Below are positions 17,904 through 31,832 of a stretch of DNA of 32,000 bases, piece by piece. Position numbers and translations under genes: made by a program. The notes beneath the pieces are model-generated. The model was not told the origin of the DNA and ran no database searches. It saw nothing but the letters and a program-made list of their open reading frames with translations. The stretch is from Methanothermus fervidus DSM 2088. GTDB lineage: Archaea > Methanobacteriota > Methanobacteria > DSM-2088 > Methanothermaceae. The stretch spans positions 1,050,001-1,082,000 of the forward strand of contig CP002278.1 of assembly GCA_000166095.1 (NCBI GenBank), given 5' to 3'. Each line of letters starts with the position of its first letter. Positions within the stretch are counted from its first letter, which is position 1.

Positions 17904-18460
17904 ATGATAAAAATGAATTTTAAGAGAGAAGTAATAAGGCAAACAATACATGCTTCGGGAGCATGGTTTATTTTACTTGAAAATTTTTTTCCAAATTATT
18001 TAATTGGATCAATAGCCTTACTTTTTAGCTTAATTGGGTATTTCATTTGGTATTTAGATAGAAGAGTATATTTAAGCTTTATATCTAAAATTTTGAGAAC
18101 ATGTAGAAGAAATAAAAAAGACAAGGGATTTATTTATTTTTTTATAGGGATTGGACTAACTTTCCTTTTATTTAATAATAAAGATATTATAAATGCTGCA
18201 ATTATAGTTCTATGTTTTGGAGATGCCCTATCTACAATAGTTGGTAGATTTTATGGAAAACATCCTTTTCTATTTGGGGAAAAAACATGGGAGGGATTCT
18301 TAACATTTTTATTCACATCTTTTTTTTGACAATGATAATACTTGACCCAATAAGAGCATTTATTGCAGCATTGGTGGGCGCATTGGCAGAAAATCTTCCA
18401 CTGGAAGATAATATAACGATACCTCTTTTTGTTGGCATTGCTTTGAGCTACTCCTCATAG
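17904..18460 (+). pseudogene. Polyprenol/dolichol kinase-like CTP-transferase-family membrane protein, split by a frameshift in a T8 run (18320-18327)
   Basis: The ORF to 18329 carries GDALSTIVGRFYGKH...KTWEGF. The frame starting at 18329 continues with a typical C-terminus (AFIAALVGALAENLPLEDNITIPLFVGIAL) and stops at 18458-18460. A 1-nt change in the T8 run joins the two parts. Confidence 0.7.
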
Positions 18461-18623
18461 AGTTTCCTACTTCATCAAGCTTCATCAAGAAAAAATATAG
18501 TCCTAAGTAGGGCATTCTCCCAAACAGACAATCAAAGCTACTCCACTCTTCAACAATACATGAATTTCATTTAGATTTATCATGAAAATTTAGGTTTTTT
18601 CTAGATATTATTGCATTTTGGAC
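18445..18623 (+). repeat. Intergenic repeat, copy 1: module E (GAGCTACTCCTCATAGAG...ATAGTCCTAAGTAGGG) plus a diverged module L1 (TTTTTTCTAGATATTATTGCATTTTGGAC, 18595-18623)
   Basis: It shares GAGCTACTCCTCATAG with 30201-30216 and 25061-25072. It shares ATAGTCCT[A/G]AGTAG with 25689-25701. Its L1 segment matches 25148-25176 and 30433-30461. Confidence 0.7.
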
Positions 18624-23461: not shown

Positions 23462-23543
23462 AGATTTCCCTCCATCAATAAAATGTTTAACATTAGTAAT
23501 AATATTAAAATTTTTTTTCATTAACAATTAAAATAAATTAAAA

Positions 23544-23639
23544 TTAACTTCAATAACGAAGAGAGAGGTAAATTTCAAGTGTAATAGCTAGAGAGAATTA
23601 AGGAGAGGTAGTTATAAGTTATAACTTATAAGTTATAAG
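23544..23639 (+). repeat. Intergenic repeat, copy A of the core module L2 (…TTCAATAA.GAAGAGAGAGGTAAATTTCAAGTGTAATAGCTAGAGAGAATTAAGGAGAGGTAGTTATAAGTTATAACTTATAAGTTATAAG)
   Basis: It is nearly identical to 25179-25279 and 30582-30681, with only a few substitutions. It contains the perfect 20-bp palindrome TTATAAGTTATAACTTATAA (23612-23631), which is also four [G/C]TTATAA heptads. It sits between the cbiB stop and the CobN-like gene start. Confidence 0.85.
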
Positions 23640-24515
23640 CGAGGAAAATAATGCTGAAACTATAGCCAAATACAAAATTATGGAAACTACAGCCAGCCTG
23701 ACAGCCTTATCTATCGAATTTTCATTTAACTTCCCGTCGTCTCCTAAAACATAATGGTCTGGCTTTTCTAATTTTGCTTGTAATGCACCAGCAGTGGCCG
23801 CCATTGGATAACCTGCATTTGGACTGTCAGGGACCTTAGAATCTCTTAACATTATTTTAAAGCTATTTCTCCAATCCATATTTAAAAGTAGTGAAGCAAA
23901 GACTATTAACATTCCAGTGATCCGTGCAGGTATAAAATTAAGTATATCATCTAATTTCGCTGGGAACCATCCAATTTCTCTATACTCTTTATTCTTATAT
24001 CCAATCATTGCATCAAGTGTATTCACAACCCTATAAAATACTGCACCATATATCCCAAAAAACAATGCATAAAAAATCGGAGACACTACAGAATCCACAA
24101 TATTTTCACTTAAACTCTCTATGGCCGCTGAAATAATCTGTGTCCTTGATAATTCACTTGTATCTCTACTTACAATTTCAGATACTTTTTTGCGTGCAGA
24201 TTCTATATCATCCAACCTCTTTTTCACTTCTAATGGATATTTAATAAGTAATTTTATTGAAAACGTAGAAGATAAAATTATTGAATAAAGAATTATTTGT
24301 AAAAACATTGGAAGAAAAGCTATGAAATAAAGTGGAATTATATAAAGTATAGAAGTGAGGAAAGTGATTATAACACCTGAAATTTTCTTATTTGGTAATC
24401 TTACATATAAGAAATCTATAGTTTTACCAATCCAAACAACAGGATGAATTCTAGTTGGAAGTTCTCCAATTAAATCCAATATTATCGCAAAAAATAAAAT
24501 AATTAAAAAATTCAT
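23619..24515 (-). CDS. cbiB: Adenosylcobinamide-phosphate synthase (CbiB/CobD)
   Basis: 298-aa membrane ORF with CbiB signatures (HPVVWIGK, DTSELSRTQIISAAIESLSENIVDSVVSPIFY, NTLDAMIGYKN, PNAGYPMAATAGAL). Its start overlaps the upstream CYTH gene stop (ATGA, 24512-24515). Confidence 0.9.
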   Translation of the reverse strand: MNFLIILFFAIILDLIGELPTRIHPVVWIGKTIDFLYVRLPNKKISGVIITFLTSILYIIPLYFIAFLPMFLQIILYSIILSSTFSIKLLIKYPLEVKKRLDDIESARKKVSEIVSRDTSELSRTQIISAAIESLSENIVDSVVSPIFYALFFGIYGAVFYRVVNTLDAMIGYKNKEYREIGWFPAKLDDILNFIPARITGMLIVFASLLLNMDWRNSFKIMLRDSKVPDSPNAGYPMAATAGALQAKLEKPDHYVLGDDGKLNENSIDKAVRLAVVSIILYLAIVSALFSSLITYKL

Positions 24516-25060
24516 TGTTGGTGCCTTTTCTTTTCTAAATAAAGCTCAAGGTATGATCTTCTCTCAAAATTATTCTTTATATTTAATTTTTTACAAATTT
24601 TAAAGGCATGGTCCACATATTCTTTAATTTTATTTTTATTTTTTACATTCTTCTCAACTTCAATAAATTTACCAACTTTATATACATCATCAAGACAAAT
24701 CTCAAAATCTTTAAACTTGTAAACTTTTCTTTTTTTCTTTATTGTTGCTACTGCTTTGTAACCAAGGAATTTAAGTATTTCAACCATATTTTTTAAATTT
24801 TCTATACCAACTTCAACCTCTTCTCTAGTTTTACTAATTTTATCTATTTTTGGACCTTTATATGTTAAAATTATTTTAGTTTTTTCATTTTCGATCTTTC
24901 TAATTCTCAATGCTTCATCAGTCTTTGAAAAGTCTCTGTCTGGAGCATTGAAATAAATATCTTCTTGATATATTTCCTCAATTTTTTCTGCTCCTAATTT
25001 TTTTAACCTGTCTTCAATTTCTTTTAAATTATTAACATGGGCTTTCACTTCGACTTCCAT
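24512..25060 (-). CDS. CYTH-domain protein (CyaB-type class IV adenylyl cyclase / triphosphatase family)
   Basis: 182-aa ORF starting MEVEVKAHV (the ExExK motif of CYTH), with ALRIR, LTYKG, REEVEV and FIEVE strand motifs. A GAGGAG ribosome-binding site lies 6 nt upstream. Confidence 0.8.
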   Translation of the reverse strand: MEVEVKAHVNNLKEIEDRLKKLGAEKIEEIYQEDIYFNAPDRDFSKTDEALRIRKIENEKTKIILTYKGPKIDKISKTREEVEVGIENLKNMVEILKFLGYKAVATIKKKRKVYKFKDFEICLDDVYKVGKFIEVEKNVKNKNKIKEYVDHAFKICKKLNIKNNFERRSYLELYLEKKRHQQ

Positions 25061-25073
25061 GAGCTACTCCTCA

Positions 25074-25102
25074 ATTTCCATACTATTTAGTCTATTTAAA
25101 AC
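25074..25102 (-). repeat. Solitary CRISPR-repeat-like unit (SR) on the minus strand: GTTTTAAATAGACTAAATAGTATGGAAAT
   Basis: This is the reverse complement of 25074-25102. It matches the units at 30765-30794, 30829-30858 and 25311-25340. It lies in the predicted 5' UTR of the CYTH-cbiB operon and ends 13 nt before the ATG. Confidence 0.75.
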
Positions 25103-25139
25103 ATGCATGAGACGAATAATTTTCATTTTTTATTTTAAT

Positions 25140-25303
25140 ATATATAGTTTTTTCTAAGTATTATTGCGTTGGAGAGAGAAAATCAATTTCAATAAGAAGA
25201 GAGGGAGGTAAATTTCAAGTGTAATAGCTAGAGAGAATTAGGGAGAGATAGTTATAAGTTATAACTTATAAGTTATAAGTGAAATAGAGATAGACTTATC
25301 AAG
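25140..25303 (+). repeat. Leader-like repeat, copy B (module L1 at 25140-25178 plus core module L2 at 25179-25303)
   Basis: It is collinear with 30425-30463 plus 30582-30705 and partly with 23544-23639 and 18595-18623. It starts with a TATATATA box (25140-25147) readable on both strands. It contains the 20-bp palindrome at 25252-25271. Confidence 0.85.
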
Positions 25304-25310
25304 CAAGATA

Positions 25311-25340
25311 TTCTAAGAATAGACTAAATAGTATGGAAAT
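25311..25340 (+). repeat. Solitary CRISPR-repeat-like unit (SR), 5' third diverged: TTCTAAGAATAGACTAAATAGTATGGAAAT
   Basis: The 3' 21 nt are identical to the unit at 30774-30794. The unit is followed by AGAAAAAAGGTGA (a ribosome-binding site) and the ATG at 25360. Confidence 0.7.
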
Positions 25341-25359
25341 AGAAAAAAGGTGATAGTTT

Positions 25360-25605
25360 ATGCCTAAAGCAACGTTAGCTACAGGAATTATAGCAATAGG
25401 TGCTGGTCTAGCAATAGGTTTTGCAGGTTTAGGAGCTGGAGTAGGACAGGGAGTAGTTGGATCATCCTCAGTTGGAGCAATAGTTGAAGATCCTGGATCA
25501 TTTGGTAAAAGCCTCCTATTTACAGCTCTACCAGAAACTCACACAATCTTTGGATTCATTATTGCTATAATGTTGATAATGTTTTCAGGAATGATGGGCG
25601 GATAA
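25360..25605 (+). CDS. A/V-type ATPase proteolipid (subunit K/c)-like protein with a single two-helix hairpin, located outside any ATPase operon
   Basis: 81-aa ORF with a Gly/Ala-rich first helix (GAGLAIGFAGLGAGVGQGVVG) and a second helix carrying a conserved acidic residue (ALPETHTIFGFIIAIML). An AGGTGA ribosome-binding site lies 7 nt upstream. Confidence 0.7.
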   Translation: MPKATLATGIIAIGAGLAIGFAGLGAGVGQGVVGSSSVGAIVEDPGSFGKSLLFTALPETHTIFGFIIAIMLIMFSGMMGG

Positions 25606-25750
25606 GCTACTCCTATTTTGAGCCACTCCCTACGGAGCTTCCTGATTCATAGAGAAAACTTGCCCAAAGACTATATCCCTATAGGAGATAGTCCTGAGTA
25701 GAGGTTTTCTCTCAGGTAGGCTATCTAGGGCTATCTTTTCCCTGACATCC
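25605..25750 (+). repeat. Intergenic repeat, module E copy 2 (AGCTACTCCT...CATAGAGAAAACTTGCCCAAAGACTAT...ATAGTCCTGAGTAGAGGTTTTCTCTCAGG)
   Basis: It shares CATAGA[G/A]AAAACTTGCCCAAA[G/A]ACTAT and TTTTCTCTCAG with 30213-30251. It shares ATAGTCCT.AGTAG with 18497-18510. It begins at the last base of the proteolipid gene stop codon. Confidence 0.7.
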
Positions 25751-26582: not shown

Positions 26583-26872
26583 CCACTACAGAGATAAATA
26601 AAGTGAATAGGATGCGACTCTAGGAATAAAACTTTGTAGGAACCGAGATGTTAAGAGGTAACTAATCCACAAATGAGTAAAAAATTGAAAGTGAGGGCAT
26701 GATGGTGAAATCAGATTCAAAGACCTCTTCTGTCCTTCATTTATTTTTACCATTATTCAAGCCGGACTTACAACCTCTAGCGGTCCTGCAATGGTTTCAT
26801 ATATTAAAGATCTGTGTGTAAAACAGAACAAATGGCTTGATAAAAAACATTAAAGAGGATTAAAATTGAACA

Positions 26873-26978
26873 AGAGTAAAAGAAGAGTTGTGTATATTTT
26901 TAAAACAAATGCTAGTTTTGTTCATCTATATAAATACTTTTCTTATTTCTTAATCCCCGATAGAGTGGAAATCTGTTT
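26873..26978 (+). repeat. Promoter-like repeat module P, copy 1 (…CATCTATATAAATACTTTTCTTATTTCTTAATCCCCGATAGAGTGGAAATCTGTTT), upstream of the KaiC-like gene
   Basis: It is collinear with 30466-30576, differing by a few substitutions and one short indel. It contains the strong TATA box TATATAAATA (26927-36; second copy at 30525-34). Confidence 0.8.
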
Positions 26979-30181: not shown

Positions 30182-30200
30182 TTCTTCACCCCAATTTTTT

Positions 30201-30300
30201 GAGCTACTCCTCATAGAAAAAACTTGCCCAAAAACTATCAGTTTTCTCTCAGACATGCGATGGGGATTGTCTCGTCCCCTTTTTAGGATCTGCATGCCGA
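30201..30300 (+). repeat. Intergenic repeat, module E copy 3 (GAGCTACTCCTCATAGAAAAAACTTGCCCAAAAACTAT...TTTTCTCTCAG...)
   Basis: See the module E copies at 18445 and 25605. It contains the hairpin GGGGA-ttgtctcg-TCCCC followed by TTTTT (30262-30284). Confidence 0.7.
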
Positions 30301-30424
30301 TATATAATCTCTTAACTTATTTTTTAATCCTTTTAATGCTCCCAGGTTTAACCTTCTCAACTACCTATCAGTTTTTTTCAGCTTGTAGAAGTCATCTTGT
30401 ATGAAAAAAGTAGCATAAGGAAGT

Positions 30425-30764
30425 ATATATAGTTTTTTCTAAGTGTTATTGCGTTGGAGAAAGAAAGAGTAAAGAAGAATTTGTGTATATTTTTTTAGAA
30501 CAAGTTCTATTTTTGTACTTCATCTATATAAATACTTTTCTTATTTCTTAATCCCCGATAGAGTGGAAATCTGTTTTTTACAAAATCAATTTCAATAAGA
30601 AGAGAGAGAGGTAAATTTCAAGTGTAATAGCTAGAGAGAATTGAGAGAGGTAGTTATAAGTTATAACTTATAAGTTATAAGTGAAATAGAGATAGACTTA
30701 TTAAGTATGTTAAGACAAAACATTTTTATACTGTATCCTGCCTAAAAACAAAATAATCAGTTCG
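30425..30764 (+). repeat. Leader-like repeat, copy C: L1 (30425-30463), inserted promoter module P (30466-30576), core L2 (30582-30705), then about 59 nt of unique AT-rich sequence up to the first CRISPR-like repeat
   Basis: It is collinear with copy B apart from the insertion of module P, which is homologous to 26873-26978. The 20-bp palindrome is at 30654-30673. Confidence 0.85.
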
Positions 30765-30858
30765 GTTTTAAAATAGACTAAATAGTATGGAAATACGAAA
30801 TATTTACAACCATGTGCAAATGAAGCTGGTTTTAAGATAGACTAAATGGTATGGAAAT
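30765..30858 (+). CRISPR. Mini CRISPR-like array of two 30-nt repeats (GTTTTAAAATAGACTAAATAGTATGGAAAT and GTTTTAAGATAGACTAAATGGTATGGAAAT) and one 34-nt spacer (ACGAAATATTTACAACCATGTGCAAATGAAGCTG)
   Basis: The repeats lie at 30765-30794 and 30829-30858 with 2 mismatches and a 64-nt period. A conserved leader-like sequence precedes them. Repeat length, the GTTTTAAAA...AGAC start and the ATGGAAAT end resemble archaeal methanogen CRISPR repeats as I recall them. No cas genes are in the window. Confidence 0.5.
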
Positions 30859-31153
30859 CGAAAAGAGGCTCAAGCAATAGAAATAGAAGTATACCATATT
30901 TTTTCCTGTGTCCATTGTCTAAAAAAAGTCCTGAAAAGGAGCTTGTTGAATTAAAACAGAACGAAAATCCATAATATGTATTTGTATCAGAAAATAATAC
31001 ATGATCTACTGATACTGGTGCACTAACATTTTCTATTATAATAGAAGGTACAATAAAAGTTTCAATTCCAAATTCACGTCCATCAGAAACTCCTTTTCCA
31101 TTTAATCTAATAAAAATAACATGCTCCATCATGGCTTTCATGGTAATAACCAT
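30842..31153 (-). CDS. Hypothetical ORF, probably the frameshifted C-terminal continuation of the 31107..31832 gene
   Basis: It overlaps the upstream ORF by 47 nt in another frame. A 1-nt change in the A6 run (plus-strand T6 at 31153-31158) fuses the two. Its last six codons and stop lie inside CRISPR-like repeat 2. Confidence 0.4.
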   Translation of the reverse strand: MVITMKAMMEHVIFIRLNGKGVSDGREFGIETFIVPSIIIENVSAPVSVDHVLFSDTNTYYGFSFCFNSTSSFSGLFLDNGHRKKYGILLFLLLEPLFDFHTI

Positions 31154-31832
31154 TTTTTAGGCAATTTAACAAAATATTTGTGTTGTTATGTGTTGTATAT
31201 TCCTCATAAGGACATTTTTTGATTAAAAATGGAGAAATTGCATTTTTATAATAAGAAACATTTTTTAATCCTTTTTCAGATAAATATGCTGCCAAAGAAT
31301 CTCCATAATATATTTTAGATTTATCATGATGCAGATTTCCATATTTTCTTAGTTTTATAAAAGGTAACGGGTCTGGTAAACCTTCAATTGAAAATTCTTT
31401 TGTAATGGTCTCTTGATGTTTCACGTTTCCCTCTTCAACATCTAATGAAAAGTTTATATCAATTAAAAAAGGATCATTACTATTTGTTTTCAAATAATTT
31501 ATAATACAATTTGATTTAATACCTTTATTTTCATATTTTTTAGATATTTCGTTTATTTTTGATTCTATTATTTTTTTTGCGCTATCTGAACTATTTGTAT
31601 AGCTGACATTGTTATCAATGACATTATATGCCATATCTTCAATAACTTTCCTTGCAATTATTGGTACATTGTTTTTAATATCATCCACCGTATAAATAAC
31701 ATTTTTAGAGGATTTTTTGTTGAGAATTATTGAATTCTCCATATTTATAAACGAAAAAACAGCTGAAAGTAATAAAATTAAAGGTATTATTAGTAGAAAA
31801 GTCATATTACTTATTATATAACCTCTTTCCAA
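31107..31832 (-). CDS. Hypothetical protein with a class III (prepilin-like) signal sequence
   Basis: The N-terminus MERGYIISNMTFLLIIPLILLLSAVF has a short charged leader, then RG[Y], then a hydrophobic helix, as in archaeal type IV pilin-like proteins. The remainder is Asn/Lys-rich. Confidence 0.55.
   Translation of the reverse strand: MERGYIISNMTFLLIIPLILLLSAVFSFINMENSIILNKKSSKNVIYTVDDIKNNVPIIARKVIEDMAYNVIDNNVSYTNSSDSAKKIIESKINEISKKYENKGIKSNCIINYLKTNSNDPFLIDINFSLDVEEGNVKHQETITKEFSIEGLPDPLPFIKLRKYGNLHHDKSKIYYGDSLAAYLSEKGLKNVSYYKNAISPFLIKKCPYEEYTTHNNTNILLNCLKNGYYHESHDGACYFY

What the first reader, a model, noticed from the sequence alone, without database searches (positions are those of the whole stretch)
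25061..25359. CRISPR-repeat-like units sit in the 5' UTRs of two divergent operons around a shared leader-like sequence
The 29-30-nt unit GTTTTAAA(A)TAGACTAAATAGTATGGAAAT occurs twice here in inverted orientation: 25074-25102 on the minus strand and 25311-25340 on the plus strand. Each copy is in the sense orientation of the gene it faces. Each copy also ends just upstream of that gene's ribosome-binding site and ATG. On one side the order is SR-T-GAGGAG-TAGCTC-ATG (CYTH-cbiB operon, ATG at 25060). On the other it is SR-AGAAAAAAGGTGATAGTTT-ATG (orphan ATPase proteolipid gene, ATG at 25360). Between the two copies lie a TATATATA element (25140-25147) usable on both strands and a roughly 165-nt sequence that elsewhere precedes a two-repeat mini-array. 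A CRISPR repeat built into an mRNA leader is not a standard arrangement. It suggests Cas6-type processing or crRNA-like tagging of these mRNAs, or a repeat exapted as a regulatory RNA element. The dull alternative is two fully decayed arrays.
Basis: partly seen in the sequence, partly recalled or inferred. Interest (0 to 1): 0.8.

Follow-up and report, generated by a model that had tools for sequence, protein, structure and literature searches.

The report
Stray CRISPR repeats beside decaying cas genes
The two inverted units are genuine CRISPR repeats, most likely debris of collapsed arrays beside a frameshift-riddled type I-B CRISPR-Cas locus in Methanothermus fervidus; they now sit in front of two housekeeping genes, so this is mostly ordinary decay, with one testable twist because cas6 is still intact.

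Summary
The window is Methanothermus fervidus DSM 2088. A full 29-nt CRISPR repeat lies at 25074-25102 (-), 13 nt before the CYTH ATG. A copy with a degenerate 5' end lies at 25311-25340 (+), 19 nt before the ATG of an orphan ATPase c-subunit gene. Between them are a TATA element and a leader that recurs, 95-96% identical, before a two-repeat mini-array at 30765-30858.

The same repeat builds arrays of up to 113 units next to intact type I-B cas operons in other Methanobacteriales. M. fervidus, published as having no CRISPRs, has its own I-B locus about 13 locus tags right of the window. In it cas8b, cas7, cas5, cas3, cas4 and cas1 each carry a frameshift. Only cas6 and cas2 are intact. A further leader and repeat follow cas2, and a solitary repeat sits directly before the cas2 ribosome-binding site.

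Best reading (about 0.6): these are collapsed or ectopic leader-repeat modules of a recently decaying system, reshuffled with other local repeat modules, and they now supply promoter and 5' UTR sequence to the neighbouring genes.

Cas6 cleavage of these leaders is possible but unproven. Intact cas6 is what chance predicts (P about 0.6). The repeat does not fold. No transcript data exist.

Interest is moderate to low.

The parts
25074..25102 (-). R(-): full-length 29-nt CRISPR repeat GTTTTAAATAGACTAAATAGTATGGAAAT, in the sense orientation of CYTH.
   Evidence: Exact match, 0 expected by chance. The same repeat forms arrays of up to 113 units next to type I-B cas operons.
25061..25073 (-). 13-nt junction TGAGGAGTAGCTC between R(-) and the CYTH ATG. 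It holds the Shine-Dalgarno-like GAGGAG and belongs to a recurrent motif, TGAGGAGTAGCTCA.
   Evidence: The same 14-mer lies on the minus strand at 18444-18457 and 30200-30213, each just upstream of a start codon. A degenerate copy follows R2.
23619..25060 (-). CYTH (class IV adenylate cyclase-like, 24512-25060) and cbiB/cobD (23619-24515) operon.
   Evidence: Pfam PF01928 and PF03186. TIGR00318. Exact matches to ADP77914 and ADP77913.
25139..25181 (.). Module A: TATATATA box plus 35 conserved nt. The A-rich, BRE-like AGAAAAAAC lies on the minus-strand side. It is a candidate bidirectional archaeal promoter.
   Evidence: 95% identical copy at 30424-30466. TATA-to-ATG distance is 86 nt for CYTH. 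The promoter function is inferred.
25179..25303 (+). Module B: CRISPR leader body, including four tandem (G/C)TTATAA heptamers that form a palindrome.
   Evidence: 96% identical to 30582-30705 and 92% identical to 23540-23642. Its 3' end continues into the leader that follows cas2 in L050.
25311..25340 (+). R(+): degenerate repeat TTCTAAGAATAGACTAAATAGTATGGAAAT, fused to the leader by a ~50-nt deletion.
   Evidence: 26/30 matches to the repeat, with the 3' 22 nt exact. The deletion is visible in the three-leader alignment.
25341..25605 (+). Junction AGAAAAAAGGTGATAGTTT (SD AAGGTGAT) and the orphan A-type ATPase c/K-subunit gene (25360-25605).
   Evidence: PF00137. Exact match to ADP77915. It is a >90% identical paralogue of ADP78032. 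Its DNA is identical to the copy that follows ahaI in L045 from 25489 onward.
30424..30764 (+). Second leader: module A (30424-30466), inserted module C (30465-30576), module B (30582-30705) and a leader-proximal 59 nt (30706-30764).
   Evidence: The stretch 30693-30780 is 97.7% identical to the sequence after cas2 in L050.
30765..30858 (+). Mini-array: R1 (30765-30794, the canonical 30-mer), a 34-nt spacer (30795-30828) and R2 (30829-30858, 2 substitutions).
   Evidence: R1 is identical to a repeat in the Methanothermobacter-like locus L025. The spacer has no match in the window, in the cas locus or in the viral contigs tried.
30859..30880 (+). Trailer CGAAAAGAGGCTCAAGCAATAG after R2. It is homologous to the junctions after R(-) and R(+).
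   Evidence: BLAST gives 30829-30872 vs 25102-25060 at 84% and 30830-30868 vs 25311-25350 at 87.5%. Alignments. It is conserved in the lineage that is 97% identical to the window.
23540..23642 (+). Third copy of leader module B, with no repeat attached. It overlaps the last codons and stop of cbiB on the opposite strand.
26872..26978 (+). Second copy of module C (TATA-like TCTATATAAATA plus the repeat-like end ...CCCCGATAGAGTGGAAAT), upstream of the KaiC gene.
   Evidence: 89% identical to 30465-30576. Sequence. TATA distance.

Best explanation
The two units are leftovers of the CRISPR system of Methanothermus fervidus. They are collapsed or ectopically copied leader-repeat-trailer modules of a type I-B CRISPR-Cas locus that lies just to the right of the window and is itself decaying. 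Recombination among repeats, leaders and other local repeat modules (A, B, C and the GGAGTAGCTC motif) reduced the arrays to one or two repeats and placed those remnants against unrelated genes. Because the remnants carry an archaeal TATA promoter (module A), and because each terminal or solitary repeat is followed by a purine-rich Shine-Dalgarno-like trailer, they now form the promoter and 5' leader of the CYTH-cbiB operon and of a duplicated ATPase c-subunit gene. Shown: the repeat identity, the leader paralogy, the cas locus and its frameshifts, the intact cas6 ORF and the deletion in the plus-strand copy. Inferred: module A drives both genes, so the repeats are transcribed, and the arrangement has no dedicated Cas-dependent function. 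If Cas6 is made, it would cut the leaders 8 nt before the repeat end, but only as a by-product.
For: 1. The organism is M. fervidus DSM 2088: window proteins are exact matches to ADP77906, ADP77909, ADP77913, ADP77914 and ADP77915. 2. The unit is a working CRISPR repeat elsewhere. It shows a 65-67-nt period and arrays of up to 113 units. It lies next to cas6-cas8b-cas7-cas5-cas3-cas4-cas1-cas2 in L021 and L028. 3. Contig L050 is from the same strain: its Mfer_1138 ORF is 100% identical. It carries that operon with a frame switch in cas8b, cas7, cas5, cas3, cas4 and cas1, each at or near a short homopolymer run. cas6 (237 aa, 68% identical end to end to L021 Cas6, TIGR01877 106.7 bits against a cutoff of 58.65) and cas2 are intact. 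The frameshifts recur in independent runs. 4. The sequence after cas2 is 97.7% identical to window 30693-30780, that is, leader end plus repeat. The shared sequence is therefore a true leader, present in at least three copies. 5. R(+) is a deletion derivative. R2 is degenerate, as terminal repeats usually are. 6. In a lineage 97.2% identical to the window, the R2 site keeps the repeat and trailer, but a different repeat module replaces the spacer, R1 and leader. This shows ongoing reshuffling. 7. The genome paper lists 0 CRISPRs and 28 pseudogenes. 8. There is no synteny for CYTH in other Methanobacteriales, so the arrangement is lineage-specific. 9. The repeat and both UTRs have no significant RNA structure. 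10. Shmakov et al. (PMC10120712) report frequent, dynamically gained and lost ectopic repeat copies in genomes that carry CRISPR-Cas.
Against: R(-) and R1 are essentially perfect copies (29/29 and 30/30). This needs either very recent decay or selection. A repeat followed at once by an SD and an ATG occurs three times in this strain (CYTH, c-subunit, cas2). All four terminal or solitary repeats are followed by an SD-like purine tract. That is more regular than random debris, although common descent of a repeat-plus-trailer unit would also explain it. cas6 is intact with a consensus TATA (TTTTATATA) about 56 nt upstream of its start, so Cas6 cleavage of these leaders could occur and could matter. 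A second strain about 1% diverged has 0 changes in the 159 nt upstream of CYTH, against 14 changes in 1451 nt of the rest of that alignment, which is almost all CYTH-cbiB coding sequence. The expectation is only about 1.5 changes, so this is not significant.
Confidence: 0.6

Rival explanations
1. Cas6-dependent leader processing. The repeats are transcribed inside the 5' leaders. The still-intact Cas6 cuts them 8 nt before the repeat end. This yields mRNAs with a uniform short leader (ATGGAAAT tag, then SD, then ATG), which sets their stability or translation. It would be a natural counterpart of engineered Csy4/Cas6 UTR insulation.
For: Cognate cas6 is full length, keeps the glycine-rich loop GIGEKNSLGFG and has a consensus TATA upstream. 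There are three repeat-SD-ATG junctions in one strain: CYTH, c-subunit and cas2. Module A's TATA with an A-rich BRE-like flank on the minus strand predicts a transcription start near 25113-25117, upstream of R(-) (inference). No run of five or more T lies between the predicted starts and the ATGs.
Against: Intact cas6 is what chance predicts. Six frameshifts in 2438 codons give P(no hit in 237 codons) of about 0.6 (inference). R(+) has lost the canonical repeat 5' end, which Cas6 enzymes usually contact. No transcript or cleavage data exist. No relative is diverged enough to test conservation.
Confidence: 0.14
2. The repeat acts as DNA, not RNA. The TTTAAATA inside R(-) is a TATA box for CYTH, so transcription starts downstream of it, about 10 nt before the ATG, and most of the repeat is not in the transcript.
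For: TTTAAATA is one mismatch from the methanogen TATA consensus TTTATATA and starts 40 nt before the ATG.
Against: A start about 10 nt before the ATG would fall inside or after the SD GAGGAG. Other genes in the window have SD-containing leaders. R(+) has lost this motif (TCTAAGAATA). A stronger TATATATA with a BRE-like flank lies 86 nt upstream.
Confidence: 0.1
3. crRNA-like regulator. R(-) plus the 14 nt after it (TGAGGAGTAGCTCA) yields a crRNA-like RNA. With Cascade it binds the identical 14-mers just upstream of the start codons of the DedA/VTT gene (30181) and of a 41-aa ORF (18436), as CreR, CreA and the Haloferax CRISPR-like RNA do. The mini-array at 30765-30858 could be another guide of this kind.
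For: The 14 nt after R(-) match both sites exactly from the first base. Both sites have the same 5' flank, CTA, where a type I PAM would lie, whereas the repeat locus itself has AAT. There is precedent for type I-B crRNA-like RNAs that regulate non-cas genes (PMC10120712).
Against: Identity between the two 'targets' extends to 20 nt and includes the supposed PAM side (TCTATGAGGAGTAGCTCAAA). That fits a paralogous repeat element better than a guide-target pair. The 'guide' is itself the SD and start of an mRNA. Cascade genes cas8b, cas7 and cas5 are frameshifted in this strain. The mini-array spacer has no seed match above chance in the window or in the cas locus. The PAM of this system is unknown.
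Confidence: 0.06

Closest known systems
Degenerate or orphan CRISPR arrays beside decaying cas loci
   Same: Bona fide repeat and leader sequences. Arrays are reduced to one or two repeats and the terminal repeat is degenerate. The cas operon is pseudogenised by frameshifts.
   Different: The remnants are spread over several intergenic regions in both orientations, and three of them abut the SD and ATG of intact genes. cas6 and cas2 remain intact.
Standalone repeat-like elements and mini-arrays that encode crRNA-like regulators (CreR, CreA of CreTA, the Haloferax I-B CRISPR-like RNA; Shmakov et al. 2023, PMC10120712; bioRxiv 10.1101/2023.03.10.532045)
   Same: Type I-B context. Solitary repeats and a two-repeat mini-array lie near or inside the cas locus, including one between cas1 and cas2. 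Ectopic repeat copies are typical of genomes that carry CRISPR-Cas.
   Different: No convincing spacer-to-promoter complementarity was found. The window units lie before housekeeping genes about 6-13 locus tags from the cas genes. The sequence after the repeat is an mRNA start, not a short pseudo-spacer closed by a second repeat. Cascade is broken in this strain.
LR-SR multicopy elements of Methanocaldococcus jannaschii (many copies of a long leader segment, each followed by a few to many short repeats). This comparison is from my own knowledge of Bult et al. 1996 and was not checked here.
   Same: Several dispersed copies of a conserved leader in a hyperthermophilic methanogen, some followed by very few repeats. 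The repeat type is related (...TGGAAAT 3' end).
   Different: M. jannaschii has functional cas genes and long arrays. Here the system is decaying and the leaders are mosaic (modules A, B, C).
Phage solitary repeat units (RNA anti-CRISPRs, Racr; PMC10651486) and viral mini-arrays (PMC6858448)
   Same: Single repeats outside arrays that could be bound by Cas6 or Cas proteins.
   Different: Those are encoded by mobile elements to inhibit host immunity. No viral or mobile-element signature was found here.
Engineered Csy4/Cas6 cleavage sites placed in 5' UTRs (a synthetic-biology device; from my own knowledge)
   Same: The order repeat, RBS, ATG is the layout used to give an mRNA a defined, insulated leader after Cas6-family cleavage.
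   Different: That device is artificial. No natural example at housekeeping genes is known to me, and cleavage here is untested.

Membership tests
CRISPR repeat of a type I-B system | The same sequence forms regularly spaced arrays with unique spacers. | tested here: met
   Arrays of 3 to 113 units with a 65-67-nt period in L001, L005, L014 and others.
CRISPR repeat of a type I-B system | Arrays with this repeat lie next to cas genes of that subtype. | tested here: met
   L021 and L028 carry cas6-cas8b-cas7-cas5-cas3-cas4-cas1-cas2, then leader, then array. The M. fervidus locus L050 has the same gene order followed by a leader and the repeat.
Functional CRISPR array at the reported site | At least two direct repeats separated by a spacer, downstream of a leader. 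| tested here: not met
   At 25061-25359 there are two single repeats in opposite orientation. Only 30765-30858 has two repeats and one spacer.
Functional CRISPR-Cas system in this genome | Intact effector and adaptation genes. | tested here: not met
   cas8b, cas7, cas5, cas3, cas4 and cas1 each align in two reading frames. The sites are shown. The frameshifts are reproduced in contigs from several runs.
Cas6 substrate | A cognate cas6 gene is present and intact. | tested here: met
   L050:402-1115 encodes 237 aa. TIGR01877 scores 106.7 bits (cutoff 58.65). It is 68% identical over its full length to L021 Cas6.
Cas6 substrate | The repeat is transcribed and cleaved 8 nt before its 3' end. | not testable with these tools
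   No transcript or 5'-end data for M. fervidus were found. Promoter positions are inferred only.
crRNA-like regulatory mini-array (CreR/CreA type) | Two repeat-like units flank a short spacer. | tested here: inconclusive
   Met by 30765-30858. Not met by R(-), by R(+) or by the unit before cas2.
crRNA-like regulatory mini-array (CreR/CreA type) | The 5' seed of the spacer is complementary to a PAM-flanked promoter or 5' region. | tested here: inconclusive
   The mini-array spacer gives only chance-level matches in the window and in L050. The 14 nt after R(-) match two gene-proximal sites with a CTA flank, but these look like paralogous elements. The rest of the genome could not be searched.
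crRNA-like regulatory mini-array (CreR/CreA type) | Conserved in related CRISPR-cas loci. | tested here: inconclusive
   R(-) is identical in a strain about 1% diverged. R2 and its trailer are kept, but R1 and the spacer are absent, in a lineage 2.8% diverged. No repeat lies before cas2 in L021 or L028.
Structured cis-regulatory RNA in a 5' UTR | A stable or conserved secondary structure. | tested here: not met
   The repeat folds at -0.5 to -0.8 kcal/mol. The two UTRs have z-scores of -0.58 and +0.20. There are no Rfam hits.

The most novel reading that the evidence does not exclude
In Methanothermus, CRISPR repeats placed directly before ribosome-binding sites (CYTH-cbiB, a duplicated ATPase c-subunit gene and cas2) serve as Cas6 cleavage sites that give these mRNAs a defined 8-nt-tagged short leader. 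cas6 would then be the one nuclease gene kept intact in a dying type I-B locus because it has been recruited to host mRNA maturation or regulation.
Probability: 0.12. Interest if true: 0.75.

Novelty: new member of a known kind. Interest (0 to 1): 0.36.

Why it matters
The result corrects the record for a classic hyperthermophile. M. fervidus was published with 'CRISPR repeats: 0', yet it carries a type I-B locus, at least three leader copies and five or more repeat units. This is a system caught in early decay.

It also shows how array debris can be rewired into promoters and leaders of ordinary genes, and how leader and repeat modules reshuffle a small genome.

The practical value is a cheap, decisive experiment. 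With cas6 intact and three repeat-SD-ATG junctions, 5'-end mapping would show whether a Cas6 enzyme processes host mRNAs in nature. If it does not, this is an ordinary CRISPR graveyard.

Tried and rejected
- Rfam at gathering threshold and at permissive E-values gave nothing relevant and no CRISPR-DR family.

- RNA folding of the repeat, both UTRs and the element after the c-subunit gene gave no significant structure.

- Protospacer searches for the mini-array spacer in viral contigs, the window and the cas locus found none.

- Scans of viral contigs for leader module B and module C found none. The single viral hit for the repeat core (L037) is a chance match inside a coding sequence.

- Modules A, B, C and the GGAGTAGCTC motif occur only in Methanothermus sequences among all loci fetched.

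- CYTH has no conserved synteny in Methanobacterium or in metagenomic relatives.

- The next-closest CYTH homologue is only 57% identical, so deep comparative tests are impossible.

- My first cas6 search used the Cas6 of L025, a different Cas6 subfamily, and returned no Methanothermus hit. Together with the genome paper's 'CRISPR repeats 0', this briefly suggested a Cas-less genome. The Cas7 search overturned that. The lesson is that the earlier negative was a false negative.

- One contig in the protein collection encodes an uninterrupted 322-aa Cas7 (P0408). I could not fetch it. Other contigs from this strain differ from each other only by gaps, so it may reflect a sequencing error or real heterogeneity.

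- The M. fervidus chromosome itself was not retrievable. The genome-contig scan did not return it, and gene look-ups gave only short contigs that break at the repeat modules. Genome-wide copy numbers, the size of the cas-adjacent array and the exact distance from the window to the cas locus remain unknown.

- No transcriptome or transcription-start data for M. fervidus were found.

Full report
**Source and observation.** The window comes from Methanothermus fervidus DSM 2088. GlnA, MetK, CobD, CyaB-like CYTH, the c-subunit and other products are exact matches to ADP77906-ADP77921, and KaiC is Mfer_1125.

GTTTTAAATAGACTAAATAGTATGGAAAT lies at 25074-25102 on the minus strand with no mismatch. 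The 22-nt core ATAGACTAAATAGTATGGAAAT occurs four times in the window, against 0 expected from shuffles. The plus-strand copy at 25311-25340 is exact only in its 3' 22-23 nt. Its 5' end is TTCTAAGA, giving 26/30 matches.

The minus copy ends 13 nt before the CYTH ATG. The plus copy ends 19 nt before the ATG of an 81-aa ATPase c-subunit gene.

Between the copies lie TATATATA (25140-25147) and about 165 nt that recur at 30424-30466 (95% identical) and 30582-30705 (96% identical). That second copy sits upstream of a two-repeat, one-spacer mini-array at 30765-30858.

**The unit is a real CRISPR repeat.** A scan of one genome per species returned a Methanobrevibacter MAG with the repeat at a 65-nt period, decaying at the distal end. 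A metagenome scan returned 29 loci, with arrays of up to 113 repeats.

Two of these loci (L021, L028) carry a complete type I-B operon, cas6-cas8b-cas7-cas5-cas3-cas4-cas1-cas2, followed by a leader and the array. A Methanothermobacter-like locus (L025) has five degenerate repeats ending 49 nt before cas6. One of them is identical to the 30-nt R1 of the window.

The RNA does not fold: -0.5 to -0.8 kcal/mol, no better than shuffles. That is typical of this repeat class and means any RNA-level role would need a protein.

**The genome has its own type I-B locus, and it is decaying.** The genome paper lists 'CRISPR repeats 0' and 28 pseudogenes. A search with one Cas6 subfamily found no Methanothermus protein. 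A Cas7 search did, returning a 198-aa 'type I-B Cas7 [Methanothermus fervidus]' fragment.

Contigs encoding that fragment include L050 (8834 nt). L050 is the same strain, because its 321-aa ORF is identical to Mfer_1138/ADP77924. That places the locus about 13 locus tags beyond KaiC, just right of the window.

tblastn with the L021 and L028 Cas proteins shows the full operon in L050. There is a change of reading frame in cas8b, cas7, cas5, cas3, cas4 and cas1, at or near short homopolymer runs such as A6, A7 and G6. Contigs from several sequencing runs show the same frameshifts.

cas6 and cas2 are intact.
- cas6 encodes 237 aa. It matches TIGR01877 above cutoff, is 68% identical over its full length to L021 Cas6, and keeps the glycine-rich loop.
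- A consensus TATA lies upstream of it.

With six frameshifts in 2438 codons, an unhit 237-codon gene is expected with P about 0.6. Intact cas6 is therefore not evidence of selection. This is my inference.

**The shared sequence is a true leader, and the plus-strand unit is a deletion derivative.** Downstream of cas2, L050 reads leader-proximal sequence plus GTTTTAAAATAGACTA. This is 97.7% identical to window 30693-30780.

Aligning the three leaders shows that the copy at 25179-25340 keeps the leader body. It lacks about 50 nt next to the repeat, and the repeat's canonical 5' end is degenerate. The strain therefore has at least three leader copies: one adjacent to cas2, one before the mini-array and one before the c-subunit gene. 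A fourth, partial copy at 23540-23642 overlaps the end of cbiB.

**The region is a mosaic of reshuffled modules.**
- Module C has its own TATA and a repeat-like end...GATAGAGTGGAAAT. It is inserted between A and B at 30465-30576 and stands alone before KaiC.
- The 13 nt between R(-) and the CYTH ATG belong to a motif, TGAGGAGTAGCTCA. The motif recurs on the minus strand just upstream of two other start codons (18436 and 30181). A degenerate copy follows R2.
- The three repeat-plus-downstream units are 84-87.5% alike beyond the repeat.
- In a lineage 97.2% identical to the window, the R2 site keeps the repeat and trailer, but a different repeat element precedes it instead of the spacer, R1 and leader.
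- The 'orphan' c-subunit gene is a >90% identical paralogue of ADP78032. In L045 that paralogue follows the end of the ATPase subunit I (ahaI) gene, and its DNA is identical to the window from 25489 onward.
- CYTH has different neighbours in other Methanobacteriales.

All of this points to recombination among dispersed repeats, not to a designed arrangement.

**What argues for more than debris.**
- A solitary repeat-like unit (26/30 matches) sits between cas1 and cas2, followed directly by AAGGTGATTAA-ATG. The order repeat, SD, ATG therefore occurs three times in this strain.
- All four terminal or solitary repeats are followed by an SD-like purine tract.
- R(-) and R1 are perfect copies.
- Module A has an A-rich BRE-like flank on the minus-strand side. 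That predicts a start near 25113-25117, so R(-) probably lies in the CYTH leader (inference).
- With cas6 intact, cleavage 8 nt before the repeat end is possible.
- The 14 nt after R(-) match two gene-proximal sites that share a CTA flank. This resembles crRNA-like regulators (PMC10120712). However, the match between those two sites extends through the flank, which favours paralogy, and Cascade is broken here.

**Limits.** The only relatives available are about 1% and about 2.8% diverged. The 159 nt upstream of CYTH show 0 changes where about 1.5 were expected, which is uninformative. The chromosome could not be scanned and no transcript data exist.

**Verdict.** The best-supported explanation is nevertheless the dull one: collapsed and ectopic leader-repeat modules of a recently inactivated type I-B system, now serving passively as promoter and leader sequence (confidence about 0.6). 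Cas6-dependent leader processing (about 0.14), the repeat acting as a TATA element (about 0.10) and a crRNA-like guide (about 0.06) remain open. One 5'-end mapping experiment would separate them.

Noticed in passing
L050:1-8834 (same strain, just right of the window): A complete type I-B cas locus in M. fervidus DSM 2088. Six of its eight genes are frameshifted at or near short homopolymer runs; cas6 and cas2 are intact. The published genome description lists 0 CRISPRs.
   Followed up: yes
L050:8409-8438: A solitary repeat-like unit, GTTTTAGATTAGACCAAATAGTATAGAAAT, between cas1 and cas2, followed directly by AAGGTGATTAA-ATG of cas2. No counterpart was found at that position in the intact loci L021 and L028.
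   Followed up: partly
window 26872-26978 and 30465-30576: Module C: a 107-112-nt repeat with its own TATA-like box and a CRISPR-repeat-like 3' end (...CCCCGATAGAGTGGAAAT). It occurs once upstream of KaiC and once inserted into the mini-array leader. It may be the relic of a second leader-repeat unit.
   Followed up: partly
window 23540-23642: A third copy of leader module B with no repeat attached. Its reverse strand encodes the last codons and stop of cbiB, and it lies just upstream of the 1625-aa ORF start.
   Followed up: partly
window 18444-18461, 30200-30217, 25604-25640 (minus-strand sense): A recurrent element, TCTATGAGGAGTAGCTCAAA. It lies 6 nt before the ATG of an unannotated 41-aa ORF (18436) and 19 nt before the likely true start of the DedA/VTT gene (30181). 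Related copies follow the c-subunit stop codon, inside a ~130-nt element with only modest predicted structure (z about -1.8).
   Followed up: partly
window 25360-25605; L045: The orphan c-subunit gene is a near-identical paralogue of ADP78032, which in L045 follows the ATPase subunit I (ahaI) gene. The two differ only in the first ~130 nt, which suggests recent duplication or gene conversion. Contig L045 joins ahaI and the other copy's 5' part to this locus's downstream sequence and may be chimeric.
   Followed up: partly
window 30842-31832 (-): ORFs 31107-31832 and 30842-31153 are two halves of one frameshifted gene. It is intact (329 aa) in a lineage 97.2% identical to the window. Its last codons are the antisense of repeat R2 and the trailer.
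   Followed up: yes
window 25647-25674 and 30211-30238: A 28-nt repeat, TCATAGAGAAAACTTGCCCAAAGACTAT (2 mismatches between copies), that is part of the elements carrying the GGAGTAGCTC motif.
   Followed up: partly
L042:1-6100 (related lineage, region right of the window): Beyond the window end lie Sua5/YrdC, a Zn-dependent PLC-like gene, and a 970-aa ResIII/DEAD/SWI2_SNF2/YagJ helicase-like gene with a 421-aa partner. Together with the cas locus, this could be a defence island.
   Followed up: no
L025:3870-4210 (-): In a Methanothermobacter-like contig, a five-unit degenerate array reads toward cas6 and ends 49 nt before its ATG. This resembles the cas6-proximal mini-arrays described for type I-B systems.
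   Followed up: no
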